Notes under the pieces: generated by a model
Told to the model about the DNA's origin: nothing
What the model saw: only the letters and a program-made list of their open reading frames with translations
Database searches by the model: none
Source of the DNA: Anolis carolinensis
Lineage: Eukaryota
Assembly: GCF_035594765.1 (NCBI RefSeq)
Contig: NC_085844.1
Span: 54,699,923 to 54,763,922, forward strand
Length of the DNA stretch: 64,000 bases
Reading direction: 5' to 3'
Made by a program: the position numbers and the translations under genes
Shown: in pieces, positions 1,377 to 63,604 of the stretch
Numbering within the stretch: position 1 is the stretch's first letter
How the letters are laid out: the number at the start of each line of letters is the position of its first letter

Positions 1377-3552
1377 TTTATTTTTGTTTAATACCATCAG
1401 CAGTATGAGTGAAAAGGATATTGGAGTCTTAGTAGACCACAAACTAAATATGAGTTCTAGTGATACCTGGAGGCTTTCAAGTTGTGGGTGCAATTAATCT
1501 ACTGTGTGAATATTGAAGAGGCTATCCAATGTGCTGATTCCTAACCCCAAAACAGGATCAGAACCTTGGATAAGACCTAGAGTGTGAATTTACTTCTACA
1601 AACAGACAGGACACTGGGGACAATATAGGATTAGGAACCCAGGAGATGTATATTCAGTTCTCCTCTGCTTCTCAGTTCTTCATCCTATCTAAGCAATAAT
1701 TCACTTTCCTAGTGTTTTTCAATGGAGACATCCACTTCACAGTGCTTTTATAGTTACAATGTCTGCAGAAGAAAGTGGATTCAATAACTGTCAAATGCAT
1801 TCAACCTTTTTGCTCAAAATGCTTGAGTGGGTACACCACTTGTTCACTCATTCTCAGTATGTTATGTGAAAGTTCACCAAAGAGAAAGATATGAGCAGAG
1901 AAAACCAATATAATCTTTATTACCTGCAGCCTTTTCTCATTGTGACTAGTTTTATGACTTGACTATCAGGTAGCTGCTGGATTGTCTTACCAACATATTT
2001 CTGATGCGTGTTCATTCCTAGTATTTATGAAGTTTAGGAATCAAGGAGAATGGTAATTCAAGGATCCCATATTTAATGGTCTGACCATATCTTTCAACAG
2101 ATGGAGTCATTTTGCCATTACATTTTTCTCCACATATCATTTTGTACTTCCATCTATAGACTGTGATACTTAATAGATGCAGAACTAGCATAGAACTTGA
2201 TTGGACTGTGAAAGACGGAGACAGCATTTTTATAGCCCTGGTTATATATATACAGTATATATTAATGGTTACTATGCAGATTCTCCTTATCCTACACCAG
2301 GAGATTTGTAACAAATAGACAGAGAGAGGGAATTATTTGAATTCTGTATAATATACATAGTGCTTAATACCTAACTGAATTTCAATCATTTTGAGCTTAA
2401 AATATTAATTTCTGCTTTGGTGCAGATTACTTGTCAAAACATTATTTCGATCAAAATACAAAAGCAAACAGAGACCTTATCATACTTTTTCAAACCTTCT
2501 GCAGAGGTTTACCATGAACACTTTTAACACATACAATGTAGTCCTCGACATGTTTATTCAGAAATAAATCTCACTCAGTTCTAACAGATTTACCACCTAA
2601 TAAATGTATTCAGGGTTGTAGATGAAATACAAGCACTTAGTGGATTGTGAGCTTCTTTTAACTATAAGGTGTTTAGTAAAAATTGTAATGGGATGAATAA
2701 AGGAGACATTTGTGACATTTGAAATTTGTCATATGTGTTCAAGTCAGCTCTGACTTCAATGGCAACCCTCTCCTATCAAATTCTGATATGTCTCCATCTG
2801 TATCAAAACTTCCACTTAAAGGAAACTGGTATGGCTAAAGGAATAGTGAGAAGAAAACATAACTCTTCTTGATACAATAAAGCTGGCACAATTGTAAATT
2901 TCAGATGTTTCAATCAAAAAGTAGTTCAGCGTCCAGGCAACACATTTCATAAAATATTTTTCTTGTGCTACACATCAAGATGCAAACAGGTAATGACTGG
3001 ATTAAGTAATTATGTGTCTAATTTTCCTAGCTCCAGAGAATGAGTAATTTAAGGGCTATGCTAATGTCCTGCAGTTGAACATCTGTACTTTGACAATAGA
3101 ATTACAAGACTAAGGGCCATTCCACACAGGCTCTAAAACACAAAAGAAACTGGGACAAAAGTGGGGTGGCTAAATGACATTTAAGGAAAATGTGCACTGA
3201 TTCGGCTTAACAGCTGAAAAACGTGTTAAAAGGGCACGCTTAAAATCCGATTTTGACCCAAAAAAAGTGCATATTCACATCACTGTATATCCCTGCAGTC
3301 AAGGAAAACATGTAACTTTGTTCCTATATGATGATGTGGACTGCTCCAGTGCATCTCTGAATTTTAAAATCCTGAAACAGTTGGTGAGGGCTGTAAACAA
3401 ATGGAACCACAGACACACAGGTGGCTACATGTAAGCACAATTGGAAAGCAATTCCCATGAAAACTCTCTGCAACCATTCCTTTTTTCTGATGTTTATGAA
3501 ATTGAACAGAGCTTGAATTTACAGGAAGGCCATGAGGAGAGGTGGGTAAGAA

Positions 3553-6388: not shown

Positions 6389-6890
6389 ATACAACCATCC
6401 CTGCACATTTGTGGGTTAAGTATTTGAAGATTAAAATATTGTCAGATTGCTAACTATACCACTGCTTACACTGCTGTTTTACACACAATCAGAAAAGTTC
6501 TTTCTAGGCCCAAAGTTGACCATAGAACAGCTGTGGATGACATACAAATACCTAGATAAATTGTTGTCGAAGGCTTTCATGGCCAGAGTTACTGGGTTGC
6601 TGTAAGTTATTTTCAGACTGAATGTCCATGTTCCAGTAGCATTCTTTCTTGATGTTTCACCTGCATCTGTGAAAAGCATCCTCAGACCGACCTCTGAACA
6701 AACCTCTGAGAAGGCTTGCCACCAATGCAGGTGAAACTTCAGGAAAGAATGCTACTGGAACATGGACATACAGCCTGAAAAACTCACAACAACCCATCTA
6801 GAGAAGTGTTTGCAATTTTTATTTATATTTGTGGTTTTGCCATTTCCATAGGGATCCTGTTCCCCTATCCCCTGAAAATGTGGAGGTATA
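6389..6890. mobile_element. Degraded Tc1/pogo-type MITE interrupted by Penelope ends
   Basis: Similar to the copy at about 41395-41652 (ggatcctgttcccctatcccctgaaaatgtggagg end); interrupted at about 6560-6797. Confidence 0.45.
6562..6797. mobile_element. Inverted pair of Penelope 3' ends (pseudo-LTR fragments)
   Basis: 6590-6686 and 6703-6797 are reverse complements of each other and match the Penelope ends at 21157-21255 and 26370-26505. Confidence 0.8.
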
Positions 6891-7054: not shown

Positions 7055-7344
7055 CAGAGCCGGCCCTAGGTATTTTCAAGTGTAGGTGAACAGAATTTTG
7101 GCATCCCCCGCCCAAAAAAAACAATCACTGAAAAATAAAAGCGTTGGATAAGCAAAAATGTTGGATAATAAGGAGGGATTATGGAAAAGCCTATTAAACA
7201 TCAAATTACATTTAGATTTTACAAATTAAGCACCAAAACATCATGTTTTACAACAAATCAACAGAAAAAGCAGTCTCGACTGCGCCCCGTATGTTTGGCG
7301 CCCGAAGCAACCGCTTAATTCGCCTCATTGTTGGACCGGCTCTA
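7055..7344. mobile_element. Non-autonomous hAT element carrying a mariner-MITE fragment
   Basis: TIRs cagagccggccc / ggaccggctcta; 8-bp TSD atacaaag at 7047-7054 and 7345-7352. Confidence 0.85.
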
Positions 7345-48169: not shown

Positions 48170-48800
48170 AGCCTTTCTGAGACCAACATTGTTGCCCTTC
48201 TCTGAACTTGTTCAGATTTGTGTATGCTCTTCTCAAAATACAGCATCTCAAAGTAGACACAATATTCCAGATGAGATTAGACTGGTTCAGAATAGAGTGA
48301 AATCACTGCTTCTTCAGACTTGGAAATGATTATTGTACCAATGCAGTCTAAAATTGAATTAGCCCTTTTTGCAGCTCCATCACACTTCTGATTTCTGACC
48401 ACCTTGAGGTTGACTGACCACGGGTTTGATCCATTTCACATGTACTTCTCCCAAACAGATACTTCTCATACTATGNNNNNNNNNNNNNNNNNNNNNNNNN
48501 NNNNNNNNNNNNNNNNNNNNNNNNNNNNNNNNNNNNNNNNNNNNNNNNNNNNNNNNNNNNNNNNNNNNNNNNNNNNNNNNNNNNNNNNNNNNNNNNNNNN
48601 NNNNNNNNNNNNNNNNNNNNNNNNNNNNNNNNNATTTGTTTGTTGAATTCATTTTTGTTTTCATTTGGTTTTTCACTTTTAAATTGTTGAATTTTAAAAT
48701 GTTTTTATATCTATTGAAGCATTACCCAACACTCCCAAGTTCTGTGCCATCTATAAATACGAGAAAGTTTCCGCCCTTCATCTATTTCACACGACCAGTC
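48170..48800 (-). mobile_element. Degraded CR1 fragments on both sides of the gap
   Basis: Reverse-complement CR1 RT-region remnants. Confidence 0.55.
48476..48633. other. Assembly gap (158 N)
   Basis: Run of N. Confidence 1.
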
Positions 48801-50992: not shown

Positions 50993-51092
50993 ATGAACCT
51001 ACAATTAATCTATATATCTGTACTGATGTTTGGAGTAGCAGGTCTACTCCTCTTCATGTATCTGCAAGCTTGGATAGAAGAACAACATACAG
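50993..51092 (+). CDS. CHST9: Carbohydrate sulfotransferase 9 (GalNAc-4-O-sulfotransferase 2), first coding exon: type II signal anchor; the gene continues beyond the window
   Basis: Translates [33 protein letters not shown](G), matching the recalled human CHST9 [34 protein letters not shown]; phase-1 donor CAG|gtaaca. Confidence 0.93.
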
Positions 51093-52553: not shown

Positions 52554-52688
52554 CAGTGATTCTCAACCTGGAGTCCCCAGATGTTTTTGGCCTTCAACTC
52601 CCAGAAATCCCAACAGCTGGTAAACTGTCTGGGATTTCTGGGAGTTGTAGGCCAAAACACCTGGGGACCCACAGGTTGAGAACCACAG
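52554..52688. mobile_element. hAT fold-back MITE
   Basis: TIRs cagtgattctcaacctg / caggttgagaaccacag; TSD atttagaa. Confidence 0.9.
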
Positions 52689-54329: not shown

Positions 54330-55840
54330 TATTTATTTCGTGTCAAAAGCATTGCATAAATAAATAAGTATACAACTGATGAAATAGAGGGAGCACAAGC
54401 AGATAAATAATTTTAGACCAAAAATGGGCAACAGCGACCGCATTGCCTGTAGCTTTGAACAGTTCTTCCTCTCTGCATGAGGCATGGCATTGTGGGCAAG
54501 CATACAGATGATGAGTTGTTTGTTCTGCTCCACAATCACACAAGGTGGAAGCTTCTTCTAGGTAGTGCCTTTTTGCCAGGCTGTCTTTTGATCTGCCAAC
54601 TCCGCTTCTGAGTCTGTTCAGGGACTTCCAACTTACCCATTCTTGGTTTGCCCCTGGAGAAAGACCCTCGTGGGGGGCCATCCAGCTGGAATTGCCTGAT
54701 TTTGTACCCACACAGATATTCTTGCTGTTGCTGGAGGAACACTTGGAGGAGTGGTGGTTCTCATGAAAATTTTCCCTAATTTAAGTCTGCTGGGAGGAGG
54801 CTGATAGCCAGGGCCGGCCGGAGATATTTTTTGATGTAAAGCGGGGGTGCTGAAAAGCGCCCCCGCCACCGGCGCCCTGGCCCCGCCCAGCGTGCCCTGG
54901 CCCCGCCTCCCACGCTGCGTGGGAGGCGGGGCCAGGGCGAATAGTGAGGGGGCGGGGCCAGAGTTGGCCCCGCCCCCCGTGCCCTGGCCCCGCCTCCCAC
55001 GCAGCGTGGGAGGCGGGGCCAGGGCACGCTGGGCGGGGGGGCGGGGCCAGAGTTGGCCCCGCCTCCCACGCTACCCCCGCTCGCCCGTCTGGCCTTTTGT
55101 AGCAGGCCAGACTCAGCGGAGGTTTCTCCAGGCCGCGATTGCGGCCTGGAGGAACCTCCGCTGAGTCTGGCCTGCTACAAAAGGCCAGACGGGCGAGCGG
55201 GGGTAACGTGGGAGGCGGGGCCAGCTCTGACGCCGCTCCCCCCCCCCGCCCAGCGTGCCTTGGCCCTGCCTCCCACGCAACGTGGGAGGCGGGGCCAGGG
55301 CACGCTGGGCGGGGGGGGCGGCGTCAGAGCTGGCCCCGCCTCCCACGTTACCCCCGCTCGCCCGTCTGGCCTTGTGTAGCAGGCCAGACTCAGCGGAGGT
55401 TCCTCCAGGCCGCAATCGCGGCCTGGAGAAACCTCCGCTGAGTCTGGCCTGCTACAAAAGGCCAGACGGGCGAGCGGGAGTAGCGTGGGAGGCGGGGCCA
55501 GCTCTGACGCCGCTCCCCCCCCCCCCGCCCAGCGTGCCTTGGCCCCGCCTCCCACGCTGCGTGGGAGGCAGGGCCAAGGCACGCTGGGCGGGGGGGGGGG
55601 AGCGGCGTCAGAGCTGGCCCCGCCTCCCACGCTACTCCCGCTCGCCCGTCTGGCCTTTTCTAGCAGGCCAGACGGGCCAGGGCGCACTGGGCGGGAGGCG
55701 GGGCACCGTCAGGGCGGTGCCCCGCCTCCCGCCCAGCCTGACGGCGCCCCCCCGGGCCTGCGCCCGAGGCGGCGGCGTCAGCTGCCGCATTAGTGGGGCC
55801 GGCCCTGCTGATAGCCATACAGCTGGTGGCTTTCATGGTA
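54330..55840 (-). mobile_element. Vingi 3' fragment interrupted by a hAT element
   Basis: Minus-strand WKSLNRLRSGVGRSKDSL...CDCGAEQTTHHLYAC; same family as 45660-46184; resumes at 55816. Confidence 0.88.
54809..55807. mobile_element. Non-autonomous hAT element (999 bp) with a GC-rich nested palindromic interior
   Basis: Perfect 11-bp TIR cagggccggcc / ggccggccctg; 8-bp TSD ctgatagc at 54801-54808 and 55808-55815. Confidence 0.93.
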
Positions 55841-57519
55841 TTCAACCTTATTTCTCTCACAATTGGCAGCAACTTCCCATCGCATATTGGGGGGGGGGCA
55901 ATGCCCAATAGCTTATAAAGTCTATCAGATAATTGGTGTGTCTGTGCGATTGAATAGAGGTGTGATATTGAAGATGTTCAACCCTTATATACAAACTATC
56001 AATTGAAACACAACTATAGTGTAATAGTAGATTCGTATGATAAAGTCCTTAGTGTGCCTGCACAGATAATGACCTCTTCCTGAAATTCAGCTTAATAGTG
56101 AAGTTAGAAAGACATGTCATCAATAATAAGTGTATGTTTCTTTCCCCTCAAAGTTTATTATTTGTTATTTCCTGCATGAAGTATTGGATACATGGTGGTT
56201 GTGATTTCATAGCCTGTGGAGAGCATTCTTAGATTTGCCAAAGTTTGGGAATGTTGTTTATACCTATATTTGGATATTACTCTACAATCCAATGTTGTGG
56301 CCCATTTATCTAGCACAGCATCTTTAAATCCAACAGATTTGTAAATTGTATGCATTTTCCACCTTACTTGGTTCCAATTTTTCCTACTTCATTCACTTTT
56401 GGTCAAGGTAGGGAAGTCACTCTCAATGGAGGGTAATAATAGATCTCCTCTTAACATACCTGCCAAGAAAACCTTTGATAAATTATTCTTAGGGTAGCAG
56501 GGAGTCGGAAATGACTTGAAGGTGCACAAGAACCAAATTGAGCATTTGCAGTGAAAAGATATTACTGTAATATTATTTTCTTGTATTTATTTCAGAGTAT
56601 ACCTAACTCAGGGGAAACTAACAGCTGTTTCTAAGGCTCAGATGAGGATAATCTTTAGCCAACAAATTAGTCCTGCTAAGTATATTTTTGGTTTAACTGA
56701 AATCTTTTCAGTAAGGTTTATATATGTAGCAAACAGTCATGTATTTATTAATCAGCTGCCTCTCTGTCTAGGATACACATCTTGAACAAATTTTAGAGGC
56801 CACTGTTGCCTATCATTCATCAAATTATACATTTACTGTAATTCCTTATTTAATCTGTACTGATTGATTATCCAGTGAAGGAATATGCTTTTCCAATAAA
56901 TCACTCTAGTATGATAATCTGTCATATTAAACTGGATTATGCATAATACAAATCTTATTTTGTTTAATAAAGTTTGCAATAATTTTTATACTACACAAGT
57001 GAAATGTTTCCAAAAATTCTGAAAGTGTCTTGTGAAGGGAAGGAGTAAAGAAATTGGCTAAGATTATCCAGCCTTTTCCAAAGAGGAGAATTCCCACTAC
57101 AAATCATTGAAACTACCTGATGAATTTCATTAATCTCTGTGTTATCAAAACTGGACAAACTGTGACTAGTCTGATTCTTAGTAATAGCTAATAGAAACAG
57201 GCAGTCTTTTAACCCCTAATTTACGAAGCTAAGCACTGCGAATTAATCACTGTTAAGATTAACTGCTGTCTATGATTCAGATGGCACAGTAAACTGGGGT
57301 TAATCTCCAATGAAAGGAAGTGCTTTTGGTCTACTTGTGGCCGTCGTAGAGAAAAGAGACCATCGCCTCAGGAGGCCATGATCCGGAGCAGCATTTCTTT
57401 GCAAGTTGAAGTGTGAGATATGGTCTTTATTGGAGGTTGCCATATTAATTTTCTTAAGTAGTTACATGTTGGAACTTTGAACACTATTGGAGTCTAAGAT
57501 GTTATTTTTCATAGTAATA

Positions 57520-59580
57520 TGAGCAAAAAAGATATTGAAGGTACAATTTCAAATAGTTCCAGCAGGGCAGAAAAATGGGAGATGCCTTTAGAAAAGAATG
57601 CATAACTAAAGAACTTACAAGTGAGCTAAATTCTAAAAAAAGACATGCACAAGAAATAGAAAAGGGGAAAGTCATCAAAGAGGAATTAAAATAATAGAAG
57701 AGATAAAAATATTAACAAGAGACAAGAGAAAGGGGAGAACTACTCAACACACTATCTTTGCTTCATCTTCTCCCCAAAAAAGAAAACAGTGCTCAAACTG
57801 GGAAAAACAAAGCAGACAATGCAGCCAGGAAAATGGAGCACATAATAGGTAAAGAGGTAGAACAGCACTATCTGTCTACTCTAAATGAATTCAAATCTCC
57901 AGGGCCAATTGACCTACACTCAAGTATATTAAGAGAACTGGCAGAAGTAATCTCAGAACCACTGACAATATTTTCAGGGAATTCCAGGATAACAAGAAAA
58001 GACTTAGCAGATTGGAGGAGGACAAATGGTACCCCATCTTCAAAAGTAAACAAAAAAGGGGGCAAACAATTACTGCTCAATTACTAGTAAGATTCTAGAG
58101 CAGATCACTAAACAGACAATCTGTAAGCACTTAGAAAGAAATGCCATGCTCGCTAAAAGATTTCTCCAAAACACAGGTTTCTCAAAAACAAATCACAGCA
58201 GACTAATCGTCAGACTAATCACTTTTTTGTTTTGATAGAGTTGTAGCACACCTTGATTTCAGTAAGGCCTTCAACAAGGTCTTACAAGCAAACTAGTAAA
58301 ATGTGGCTCAATTATGCTACTGTTAGGTGGATCTTTAAGTGGTTAACTGACCAAACCCAAATTCATTGCATATCAAATTTGCAGATGATATGAATTTGGG
58401 AGTAATAGCTAATACCCCAGAGGATAGGATTAGAATTCAAAATAACCTAAGCAGATGGGACCCAACTAACAAGATGAATTTCAACCGAGAAAAATGTCCT
58501 TTCCTTAGGCAATCCCTCGTAGTTCGAGGATGATGGTCCTCCATTTCTTGGAAGACTCCTATGCGTGATTTTTTTTTAATGTGTGGAGGTCGGTGCACGG
58601 CCAGTCAACACACCGTCTTCACAGATTGAGGTCCCAGCAGTGGTGTGATTAACTCAACGAGAGTCGCTTCTCAGTCTTTTGCAGCCTTCTTCTGCCTTCA
58701 CAGCTGTTGTAACATGTACCATGTTATCTTCCGCCTGCTCCACCGTTGAGGTCTTTGGGTTTTCGGATTGTTCTTGGTCTGGATCCTCCCCTGTGGCCAC
58801 TCCTGGGAGTGTGTGACTCCTGTGGTTGTGCCCACAGGTTCATTGGAACACGCAAGCCCCCTCACCACGTCAAGGTGACAATCCATCGAGGGGGCGAGAA
58901 AAATGTAAAGTACTACAAATGTGCAGAAATAATGAAATGTGCTGATAGGATGGATGACACATGGTCTGACAACACAACATATGAAAGGGATTTGGAGTTT
59001 TGGTAGACCACATTCTAAATATCAGTCAACAGTGTGATGCAGCAGCTTAAAAAACTAATGTAATTCTGTGCTGCATCAATAGGAGTATAGAGTTTAAATC
59101 GAGGGAAATAATAGTCCCATTTTTTTCTGCTTTGGTCAGATGTCACCTGAAATAATGTATCAATTTCTGGACACCACAATTCAAGAAGCTGGAACGTGTC
59201 CAGAGGAAGGCTACTGAAGCAGTAAAAGATCTGAAAACTTTGCCCTTTGGGGTGTAGCTTATAGAACTAGGCATGTTTAGTCTGGAGAAGGTTCTGCATG
59301 ACATGATAGTCATATTTAAAAATTGGAAACACTCTGATACTGAATATCTAGCAAGCTTTTTTTTCTGCTGCTGCAGAGACTAGGACATGAAGTATTCAAT
59401 ATAAATTGTGGGAACAGAGACTCCACCTAAACATTAGGAAGAGTTTCCTAATGGTAAGAGTTGTTCAACAGGTGAACATGCTGCCCTGGAGGGTGGTGGC
59501 ATTTCCATCCCTGGAGTTTTCAAAGGGTGTCCAGATAGCCATCTGTCAGGAGTGCTTTAATAGTGATCTCTTCAGATTCT
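57520..59580 (+). mobile_element. Degraded CR1 LINE (about 1.7 kb net)
   Basis: LNEFKSPGPIDLHSSILRELAEVISEPL, LDFSKAF, KFADD, LERVQRKAT remnants. Confidence 0.88.
58498..58894 (-). mobile_element. Bipartite non-autonomous RTE derivative (5' UTR fused to the 3' terminus)
   Basis: Matches 10727-11072 joined to 15985-16031; 12-bp TSD cgagaaaaatgt at 58486-58497 and 58895-58906. Confidence 0.9.
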
Positions 59581-60828
59581 GATGTTTTGAATCCAAGTAA
59601 GGATGCATGTTTAAAAGTTCTGGGTACTTTTTTTCCCTTGAGGGGTGTTTGTATTTCATCTTTTAAAAAGTTATACAGTAGCGTCTCACTTATCCAAGCT
59701 AAACGGGTCGGCAGAAGCTTGGATAAGCGAATATCTTGGATAATAAGGAGAGATTAAGGAAAAGCCTATTAAACATCAAATTAGGTTATGATTTTACAAA
59801 TTAAGCACCAAAACATCATGTTATACAACAAATTTGACAGAAAAAGTAGTTCAATACACAGTAATGTTATGTTGTAATTACTGTATTTATGAATTTAGCA
59901 CCAAAATATCACAATATATTGAAAACATTGACTACAAAAATGTTTTTCCATCCCTGGAGTTTTCAAAGGGTGTCCAGATAGCCATCTGTCAGGAGTGCTT
60001 TAATAGTGATCTCTTCAGATTCTGATGTTTTGAATCCAAGTAAGGATGCATGTTTAAAAGTTCTGGGTACTTTTTTTCCCTTGAGGGGTGTTTGTATTTC
60101 ATCTTTTAAAAAGTTATACAGTAGCGTCTCACTTATCCAAGCTAAACGGGTCGGCAGAAGCTTGGATAAGCGAATATCTTGGATAATAAGGAGAGATTAA
60201 GGAAAAGCCTATTAAACATCAAATTAGGTTATGATTTTACAAATTAAGCACCAAAACATCATGTTATACAACAAATTTGACAGAAAAAGTAGTTCAATAC
60301 ACAGTAATGTTATGTTGTAATTACTGTATTTATGAATTTAGCACCAAAATATCACAATATATTGAAAACATTGACTACAAAAATGTTTTTCCATCCCTGG
60401 AGTTTTCAAAGGGTGTCCAGATAGCCATCTGTCAGGAGTGCTTTAATAGTGATCTCTTCAGATTCTGATGTTTTGAATCCAAGTAAGGATGCATGTTTAA
60501 AAGTTCTGGGTACTTTTTTTCCCTTGAGGGGTGTTTGTATTTCATCTTTTAAAAAGTTATACAGTAGCGTCTCACTTATCCAAGCTAAACGGGTCGGCAG
60601 AAGCTTGGATAAGCGAATATCTTGGATAATAAGGAGAGATTAAGGAAAAGCCTATTAAACATCAAATTAGGTTATGATTTTACAAATTAAGCACCAAAAC
60701 ATCATGTTATACAACAAATTTGACAGAAAAAGTAGTTCAATACACAGTAATGTTATGTTGTAATTACTGTATTTATGAATTTAGCACCAAAATATCACAA
60801 TATATTGAAAACATTGACTACAAAAATG
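59502..60828 (+). repeat. Tandem triplication with a 443-bp period
   Basis: Units start at 59502, 59945 and 60388; identical ORF translations at 59563, 60006 and 60449. Confidence 0.95.
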
Positions 60829-63272: not shown

Positions 63273-63604
63273 AAGCCAGTGTGGTATACTAGTTAGAGCA
63301 GGAATGGGCAAACTTGGGCCCCCAGGTGTTTTGGACTTCAACTCCCACAATTCCTAACAGCTGGTAGGAATTGAAGTCCAAAACACCTGGAAGGCCCAAA
63401 TTTGCCCGTACCTGAGTTAAAGACTATAAATTAACTCCCTATTGAAAAATAAACCTTACTGGGTTACTTTGAGCTAACCACACTCTCTTAGCCTGACGTA
63501 CCTCCCAGGGCTTTTGTGAGGACAAAATGTGGAGGAGGAGATTAGCCATGAATGCTGCCTTGGGCTCATTGCAGAAAAGACAGAATATAAATGAAACCAA
63601 TAAA
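63273..63604 (+). mobile_element. MIR/CORE-like SINE (Squam3-like) interrupted by a MITE
   Basis: agccagtgtggtatactagttagag head; ctctcttagcctgacgtacctcccagggcttttgtgaggacaaaa core. Confidence 0.6.
63299..63414. mobile_element. hAT fold-back MITE
   Basis: TIRs caggaatgggcaaact / atttgcccgtacctg; TSD agttagag / agttaaag. Confidence 0.85.

What the first reader, a model, noticed from the sequence alone, without database searches (positions are those of the whole stretch)
54809..55807. hAT element filled with a palindrome of palindromes with flip/flop loops
Seen: between perfect TIRs and an 8-bp TSD, a roughly 138-bp unit is repeated in alternating orientation. Symmetry axes fall at about 55003, 55138, 55279, 55415 and 55558, with a shorter hairpin at 54916. 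The loops are reverse complements of one another (GATT at 55137 vs AATC at 55414; CAG at 55002 vs CTG at 55557). Even a stem mismatch is mirrored (ggtttctcc..ggaggaacc vs ggttcctcc..ggagaaacc), so about 54980-55580 is one large palindrome built from smaller ones. Each unit carries its own mini-hairpin (gtctggcct-tttgtagc-aggccagac) and GC boxes, and CpGs are largely intact, suggesting a young element. Established: mirrored loops in alternating concatemers are what fold-back or rolling-hairpin synthesis produces (parvovirus ITR flip/flop), and hAT excision passes through hairpin intermediates. Inference: this MITE interior grows by repeated self-priming fold-back synthesis. It puts a cruciform/G4-prone, Sp1-site-rich CpG island 3.7 kb downstream of the CHST9 coding exon.
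Basis: partly seen in the sequence, partly recalled or inferred. Interest (0 to 1): 0.7.

Follow-up and report, generated by a model that had tools for sequence, protein, structure and literature searches.

The report
Lizard transposon with shape-shifting hairpin array
A young jumping-DNA element, present in hundreds of copies in what is very likely a green anole genome, is packed with back-to-back hairpins whose number differs from copy to copy; the zigzag likely began with a DNA polymerase copying backwards at a hairpin, but most recent length changes are same-direction gains or losses of whole repeats, not repeated fold-back.

Summary
54809-55807 has perfect 11-bp TIRs, an 8-bp TSD, the stated axes and flipped loops. 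It is no assembly artefact: 27 other loci carry it at 97-100% identity, one letter for letter. Its left end occurs 765 times. A young 6.7-7.5 kb hAT with an intact transposase frame shares its TIR and likely mobilises it.

The interior is not fixed: 395-2192 bp in 81 position-sampled loci. An unrelated hairpin array at the autonomous element's 5' end behaves alike; four copies with no substitution in 2.9 kb carry four different arrays.

The mechanism is only partly as proposed. Inverted copying best explains how the alternation began, and a few copies show it recently (one reads back through the TIR into 104 bp of flank). But in the window's own clade (32 complete copies, 719-1556 bp) length moves mostly in 277-bp same-direction steps. 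The internal CAA loop is never flipped there, and allowing inverted jumps improves the fit for only 1 of 32. Loop flips also occur without growth.

Verdict: a hypervariable hairpin array in a hAT MITE, made by known template-switch and slippage errors. A good natural assay, not a rolling-hairpin system.

The parts
54801..54808 (.). left target-site duplication CTGATAGC
   Evidence: single copy in paralogous empty sites
54809..54819 (+). terminal inverted repeat CAGGGCCGGCC; corresponds to the 3' TIR of the autonomous partner, so the element is written in reverse
54809..54870 (+). conserved terminal segment: about 35 bp resemble the autonomous 3' end; small hairpin (axis 54853.5); G(C/T)GCCCC motif at 54857, found about 50-60 bp from both ends of the autonomous, sister and hAT-N6-like elements
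   Evidence: median 1 difference in the first 60 bp among 81 copies
54895..54937 (.). hairpin a0 (loop CTG, axis 54916)
54968..55038 (.). hairpin a1 (loop CAG, axis 55003)
55003..55138 (+). unit U1 (forward) with mini-hairpins c (axis 55051.5) and m (55099.5)
55028..55249 (.). long hairpin b1 (loop GATT, axis 55138.5)
55139..55279 (-). unit U2 (reverse)
55240..55318 (.). internal hairpin a2 (loop CAA, axis 55279) with asymmetric arms; the marker that keeps its orientation when the 277-bp dimer is gained or lost
55279..55415 (+). unit U3 (forward); like U1 near a, like U2 near b
55307..55524 (.). long hairpin b2 (loop AATC, axis 55415.5), flipped relative to b1 together with its stem mismatch
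55416..55558 (-). unit U4 (reverse)
55516..55600 (.). hairpin a3 (loop CTG, axis 55558)
55558..55673 (+). partial unit U5, ending at mini-hairpin m (axis 55660.5)
55687..55736 (.). single-copy hairpin r (axis 55711.5)
55736..55796 (-). subterminal segment 80-83% identical over 46-52 bp to the 5' end of the autonomous hAT
55797..55807 (-). terminal inverted repeat; corresponds to the 5' end of the autonomous partner
55808..55815 (.). right target-site duplication CTGATAGC
50993..51092 (+). host coding exon (membrane-anchor-like N-terminus; CHST9 by recall only), 3717 bp upstream; the element likely lies in the following intron

Best explanation
This is one copy of a young non-autonomous hAT DNA transposon whose hairpin-rich interior varies between copies; the alternating array likely began with an inverted template switch at two hairpins, and it now changes length mainly by same-direction slips of the 277-bp dimer. 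Steps: (1) Shown: TIRs, TSDs, 765 left ends, and an autonomous hAT with the same TIR; that its transposase moves this family is inferred. (2) Shown: one-pass forms exist (a-U-b, 538 bp), and triplicated forms (a-U-b-U'-a'-U-b, about 810 bp) need an inverted copy. Inferred: a polymerase stalled at a GC-rich hairpin switched to the opposite arm or strand, copied back to the next hairpin and switched again, a small-scale inverted triplication of the ODIRA type. (3) Shown: once U-b-U'-a exists it is a direct repeat, and close relatives differ by plus or minus whole dimers, with different breakpoints and unflipped internal loops. Inferred: slippage, re-invasion during gap repair, or unequal exchange. 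(4) Shown: loops flip and arms convert without length change; new inverted copies appear in a minority of copies. (5) Shown: some variant architectures recur at several loci, so transposition amplifies them. The array is probably selfish baggage rather than the transposase-binding site (inferred).
For: Family and partner. Variable interior: 395-2192 bp, median 820, with 71 loop-string and length-bin classes in 81 loci (the 25-bp binning inflates the class count). Own clade, chosen by a right-end 27-mer and not by structure: 32 of 33 complete; 14 share the window's loop string, 4 are 719-723 bp with four different breakpoints, 6 are 1275-1280 bp, 1 is 1556 bp, none has a TTG loop. Jump alignment to the window copy: inverted jumps lower the cost for 1 of 32 (20 to 18). 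They lower it for 3 of 3 positive controls, for 6 of 6 tests of the 538-to-810 step and for 12 of 14 other sister copies built from the 476-bp form. Loop counts in 81 copies: CAA 68, TTG 4; adjacent CAA-CAA 16, CAA-TTG 0; 18 of 21 adjacent internal a hairpins share one arm type and orientation. The same architecture arises from unrelated sequence: the window array and one autonomous 5' array (L183) share no 9-mer, yet the sister and autonomous arrays show base form, inverted triplication and 390-bp direct additions. Control: hAT-N6-like elements with a related TIR show no internal inverted repeat (1 copy tested) and were 808-809 bp at three of the five longer loci retrieved, the other two 1127 and 1417 bp.
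Against: By copy-private SNPs, mirrored duplicates are at least as common as direct ones: 3 copies mirrored (L076, L096, L107) against 2 direct (L044, L049) among 112 private SNP calls in 81 copies. So inverted copying is ongoing, not only historical. Adjacent b loops are flipped as often as not (29 flipped, 30 same, 8 other). In sister and autonomous arrays 4 of 11 adjacent w hairpins are flipped. The jump test is biased towards 'direct' because the founder already holds both orientations; only loops and SNPs discriminate. Repeated switching between the two parental strands could also give same-orientation loops. All structures come from one assembly; singletons were not confirmed by reads.
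Confidence: 0.68

Rival explanations
1. The interior grows chiefly by repeated self-priming fold-back (rolling-hairpin-like) synthesis.
For: Flipped b loop with mirrored stem mismatch in the window. L076 holds an inverted copy through the TIR and 104 bp of flank, with mirrored private SNPs. A 58-bp inverted addition occurs in L068 and relatives. New fold axes occur in sister copies.
Against: No CAA-TTG neighbours against 16 CAA-CAA. 31 of 32 own-clade copies need no inverted jump, and losses occur beside gains. The window's units are a mosaic of mirror and direct patterns. No nicking site or hairpin-resolving protein is evident; the partner encodes a hAT transposase.
Confidence: 0.1
2. The array is remodelled mainly during transposition, by gap repair of the excision site with repeated strand disengagement at hairpins, rather than during ordinary replication.
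For: Four autonomous copies with 0 substitutions in 2.9 kb have 5' segments of 583, 753, 920 and 1092 bp with different structures. Template switching during gap repair is proposed for MITE formation (PMC3814204, passages).
Against: 14 of 32 own-clade copies kept the founder structure through transposition. L076 keeps both original TSD copies around the rearrangement, which fits either route. This rival concerns timing and overlaps the best explanation.
Confidence: 0.35
3. The array is a selected functional module (transposase-binding sites or a CpG-island promoter) whose expansion helps the element spread.
For: It sits at the 5' end of the autonomous element, upstream of the transposase gene. 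CpG o/e is 0.70 and there are 13 GC boxes in the window copy. Both families keep arrays.
Against: The two arrays share no 9-mer. The motif common to all related ends, G(C/T)GCCCC, lies outside the variable array. Copies with a single pass (395-545 bp) also carry perfect TSDs. Intact CpGs are expected from youth alone.
Confidence: 0.12
4. The variation among copies is produced by sequencing or assembly errors at GC-rich palindromes.
For: Palindromes trouble assemblers (general knowledge). Singletons rest on one assembly.
Against: The same mosaic structure with the same diagnostic SNPs recurs at 28 loci, one pair identical over 999 of 999 bases with different TSDs. Variant classes also recur (four copies of 1224-1234 bp, four of 1054-1062 bp).
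Confidence: 0.04

Closest known systems
Orphan non-autonomous hAT-N6/N7/N8_AC of Anolis carolinensis (PMC3014272; hAT results, Table 1 and passages read; supplement not available)
   Same: 8-bp TSD, related TIR (CAGAGSCGGYCC against CAGGGCCGGCC), young and high-copy. One end of hAT-N6-like copies is 77% identical over 92 bp to the 3' end of the autonomous element found here.
   Different: The TIR differs at position 4. hAT-N6-like copies are 42-44% GC, the one tested has no internal hairpin, and none aligns to the window element. Table 1 lists no family with this TIR, and the main text holds no 'palindrom' or 'hairpin'.
ODIRA / inverted triplication by template switching at short inverted repeats (PMC11790251, passages)
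   Same: [quoted passage not shown]
   Different: ODIRA events span kilobases and need an origin and a linear intermediate. Here the unit is about 138 bp, sits inside a mobile element and is spread by transposition.
Short-range template switching that inverts spacers and homogenises arms (PMC8604942, passages; PMC8794818 and PMC7954356, search listing only)
   Same: Flip/flop loops and mirrored arm changes without growth.
   Different: Those reports concern single hairpins; here nested hairpins, dimer slippage and transposition act together across hundreds of copies.
Galileo / foldback elements with variable TIRs, and hairpin MITEs (PMC4168063 and PMC3814204, passages)
   Same: DNA transposons with conserved ends and dynamic internal repeats, attributed to slippage and template switching in gap repair.
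   Different: There the long inverted repeats are the two ends and the tandem repeats are direct. Here the TIR is 11 bp and the alternating array is internal or one-sided.
Parvovirus ITR flip/flop and rolling-hairpin replication (recalled)
   Same: Two loop orientations coexist; nested palindromes.
   Different: No Rep-type nicking protein or site; successive internal loops do not alternate in gains.

Membership tests
hAT superfamily, non-autonomous element | 8-bp target-site duplication | tested here: met
   Perfect in the window; perfect in 79 of 81 sampled loci (one 1-mismatch, one unmatched) and 15 of 15 sister copies
hAT superfamily, non-autonomous element | short TIR starting with YARNG (as given in PMC3014272) | tested here: met
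   11-bp CAGGGCCGGCC (motif)
hAT superfamily, non-autonomous element | no transposase of its own; a cognate autonomous hAT with the same ends exists | tested here: met
   Only GC-rich chance frames overlap the element. The partner has DUF4371 and Dimer_Tnp_hAT over cut-off, the same 3' TIR and 9 matching bases at the 5' TIR, and perfect TSDs in 11 of 12 copies extended
hAT superfamily, non-autonomous element | mobilisation by that transposase | not testable with these tools
   Inferred from shared ends and from sister elements that join the autonomous 5' end to this family's other end
hAT Tip100 group | transposase falls in the Tip100 clade (TTF zinc finger, DUF4371) | tested here: inconclusive
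   DUF4371 present and relatives are named 'TTF-type domain-containing'; no tree with reference Tip100 proteins was built; the group assignment is recalled
hAT-N6/N7/N8_AC (PMC3014272) | TIR CAGAGSCGGYCC and family interior | tested here: not met
   TIR has G at position 4; no alignment to hAT-N6/N7/N8-like copies
Classical MITE | homogeneous length within the family | tested here: not met
   395-2192 bp in 81 loci; 719-1556 bp in the own clade. It works like a MITE but is not length-homogeneous
Rolling-hairpin (parvovirus-like) concatemer | successive loops alternate flip and flop in concatemers | tested here: not met
   CAA-CAA 16, CAA-TTG 0; b loops 29 flipped and 30 same; no TTG in 32 own-clade copies
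Repbase/Dfam named family | match to a deposited consensus | not testable with these tools
   No repeat library on hand

The most novel reading that the evidence does not exclude
An active vertebrate hAT whose 5' subterminal region is a self-remodelling palindrome array that is rewritten at nearly every transposition cycle, far faster than point mutation, and that has twice converted unrelated sequences into the same zigzag. The element would diversify one of its own ends, and with it a portable CpG-island promoter. The undescribed autonomous copy may also be the missing partner of the orphan hAT-N6/7/8 families.
Probability: 0.2. Interest if true: 0.7.

Novelty: new variant of a known kind. 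Interest (0 to 1): 0.45.

Why it matters
The mutational processes are known, but they are seldom seen together in hundreds of near-identical copies with built-in orientation markers. The family lets one count, in a vertebrate germline, inverted template switches, in-place loop flips and direct slips on the same substrate, and ask whether they are tied to transposition. It also shows that flip/flop loops alone do not prove rolling-hairpin growth. The young autonomous partner (intact 759-aa frame; copies 98.6-99.9% identical) is a candidate active vertebrate transposase not listed in the 2010 survey read here. An effect on the host gene is untested and probably incidental.

Tried and rejected
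Read support for the L076 inverted-flank junction: no listed contig of 4 runs spans it, and the flank proved to be a high-copy repeat, so the result is inconclusive. Insertion polymorphism of the window copy: contigs of two runs end at 54808, but the flank is a repeat, so filled and empty alleles could not be told apart. Whole-element read support was not obtained; this leaves singleton structures unconfirmed. Structured-RNA family: no Rfam match at gathering threshold in 54700-55900. Coding potential: only GC-rich chance frames. Identity with hAT-N6_AC (similar modal length, 810 bp): rejected. Array as transposase-binding sites: the shared end motif lies outside it. TSD consensus: weak, no NTTRYAAN pattern in 80 sites. 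Literature: ten full-text searches; from listings and abstract openings none describes this family or an alternating hairpin array inside a hAT. The library lacks most subscription papers and Repbase Reports, and the supplement of PMC3014272 could not be seen; it may hold consensus sequences that bear on novelty. Rows dropped before counts: L077 (same locus as L076); L089, L097, L098 (no right end found); L243 (interrupted); L023 and L198 (duplicate locus; mis-called end). L198 was kept although its TSD does not match.

Full report
Observation. The element runs from 54809 to 55807 between perfect 11-bp TIRs and the 8-bp duplication CTGATAGC. The fold is far beyond chance (z -56.5). It inserted into an older repeat whose paralogues show the empty site with one TSD copy. 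A coding exon with a GT donor ends 3717 bp upstream; the name CHST9 is recalled. One claim needs correction: aligning the five units shows mirror inheritance only near the b axes and direct inheritance near the a axes, so the 600-bp region is a mosaic and not one fold-back product.

Family. A search of the own genome returned 28 full-length matches at 97-100% among the 40 scored of 1590 candidates. One is identical over 999 bases at another locus with another TSD. The left 24-mer occurs 765 times. I fetched the first 100 by position on contig C1. They gave 81 loci with this family's right end (395-2192 bp, median 820; 79 perfect TSDs), 15 sister elements with a different right end and interior (476-2584 bp, all TSDs perfect), 3 without a right end and 1 internal inverted end. 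Only 4 of 81 share the window's loop string. The ends are conserved: median 1 difference in 60 bp and 2 in 100 bp. The interior is therefore not fixed.

Partner. A DUF4371 search found a young family with a 759-aa open frame carrying DUF4371 and the hAT dimerisation domain. It is 100% identical to a protein that the database labels Anolis carolinensis, so the host is very likely the green anole. Eleven of 12 copies extended have both TIRs and perfect TSDs; ten are 6735-7518 bp and one is 11776 bp. The 3' TIR equals the window's. The 5' end is 80-83% identical over about 50 bp to the window's right end, so the window copy is written in reverse. The autonomous 5' subterminal region is itself a nested-hairpin array, the same one found in the sister elements, and it shares no 9-mer with the window's array. 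Four autonomous copies with no substitution in 2.9 kb have 5' segments of 583, 753, 920 and 1092 bp. Mobilisation of the window family by this transposase is inferred, not shown.

How the zigzag arose. Both array types have a one-pass form (538 and 476 bp) and a triplicated form with an inverted middle (about 810 and 866 bp). A jump alignment fits the triplicated forms better when inverted jumps are allowed (6 of 6 and 12 of 14). This matches triplication by template switching at short inverted repeats (PMC11790251, passages). Recent inverted events exist. L076 copies back through the left TIR and 104 bp of its own flank, with private SNPs mirrored, then returns to the array. L096 and a class with 58 extra bases also gained inverted sequence. 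The L076 junction could not be confirmed in public contigs.

How it changes now. Self-priming fold-back repeated in series predicts alternating internal loops. In 81 copies the internal loop reads CAA 68 times and TTG 4 times, with 16 CAA-CAA neighbours and no CAA-TTG neighbour. To avoid selecting by structure I took all 33 genome matches to the window's right-end 27-mer. Of 32 complete copies, 14 keep the window's loop string, 4 lost one dimer at four different breakpoints, 6 gained one, 1 gained two, and the rest carry other changes; none has TTG. Inverted jumps improve the fit for 1 of 32, marginally. Loops also flip or convert in copies of equal length, a known product of template switching without growth (PMC8604942, passages). 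Against this reading: private SNPs are mirrored in 3 copies and directly duplicated in 2; b loops flip as often as not; and the jump test favours 'direct' because the founder holds both orientations. Inverted copying is thus real and continuing, but it is not the main driver of length in the window's clade.

Function. The motif shared by all related ends lies about 50-60 bp from the termini, outside the variable array, and single-pass copies also transposed, so the array is probably not required (inference). Its CpG content, GC boxes and G4 patterns are real, but youth explains the CpGs and no regulatory data were examined.

Comparison and novelty. The 2010 survey of anole DNA transposons lists no family with this TIR and does not mention palindromes (PMC3014272). 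Its orphan hAT-N6/7/8 families are separate, AT-richer relatives; one end of hAT-N6-like copies resembles the autonomous element found here. Dynamic interiors with conserved ends are known from Galileo and hairpin MITEs (PMC4168063, PMC3814204, passages). Ten searches found no description of this architecture, but Repbase and Dfam could not be checked. Earlier AI notes on this genome report similar hairpin arrays in hAT elements; they are leads, not support.

Verdict. This is a new variant of a known kind: a hAT non-autonomous family and its autonomous partner with hypervariable hairpin arrays, made by known template-switch and slippage errors. Interest 0.45.

Noticed in passing
L161-L173, L181-L192 (e.g. 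G000:C2:186405373-186412162): Young autonomous hAT of 6.7-7.5 kb with an intact 759-aa frame, annotated in databases as 'zinc finger MYM-type protein 1-like'; not in Table 1 of PMC3014272; its 3' end is 77% identical to one end of hAT-N6-like elements, so it or a relative may be the missing partner of those orphan families.
   Followed up: partly
L076 (G000:C1:81587605-81589176): Element holding an exact inverted copy of its own left end plus 104 bp of flank (itself a high-copy repeat), a likely in-place template switch.
   Followed up: partly
L157-L160, L172, L173, 3' region of the autonomous hAT: An 88-bp AT-rich tandem repeat behind the transposase stop also varies in copy number among near-identical copies.
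   Followed up: no
L061, element positions about 2400-3004: An older relative with an autonomous-like 5' end and window-type hairpins lies 200 bp away; its end and L061's right end share a reverse-complemented 8-mer, suggesting an inversion between two elements.
   Followed up: no
L062 about 715-790; L093 about 1075: Sister copies with short stuttered templated insertions and with an internal direct re-copy of the left end.
   Followed up: no
L089, L098, L243: Copies interrupted by other sequence; L089 has a 1119-aa and L098 a 795-aa open frame nearby, likely LTR retroelements; observed only.
   Followed up: no
window 59502-60828: Three perfect head-to-tail copies of a 443-bp unit that includes part of a TA-site MITE-like element; a very recent duplication or an assembly artefact.
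   Followed up: no
window about 6610-6780, 52560-52680, 63300-63410: Ordinary single-hairpin MITE/MER-like palindromes; a CAGAGCCGG end at 7055 may be a hAT-N6/7/8-type element.
   Followed up: no
window 48476-48633: A 158-base run of N.
   Followed up: no
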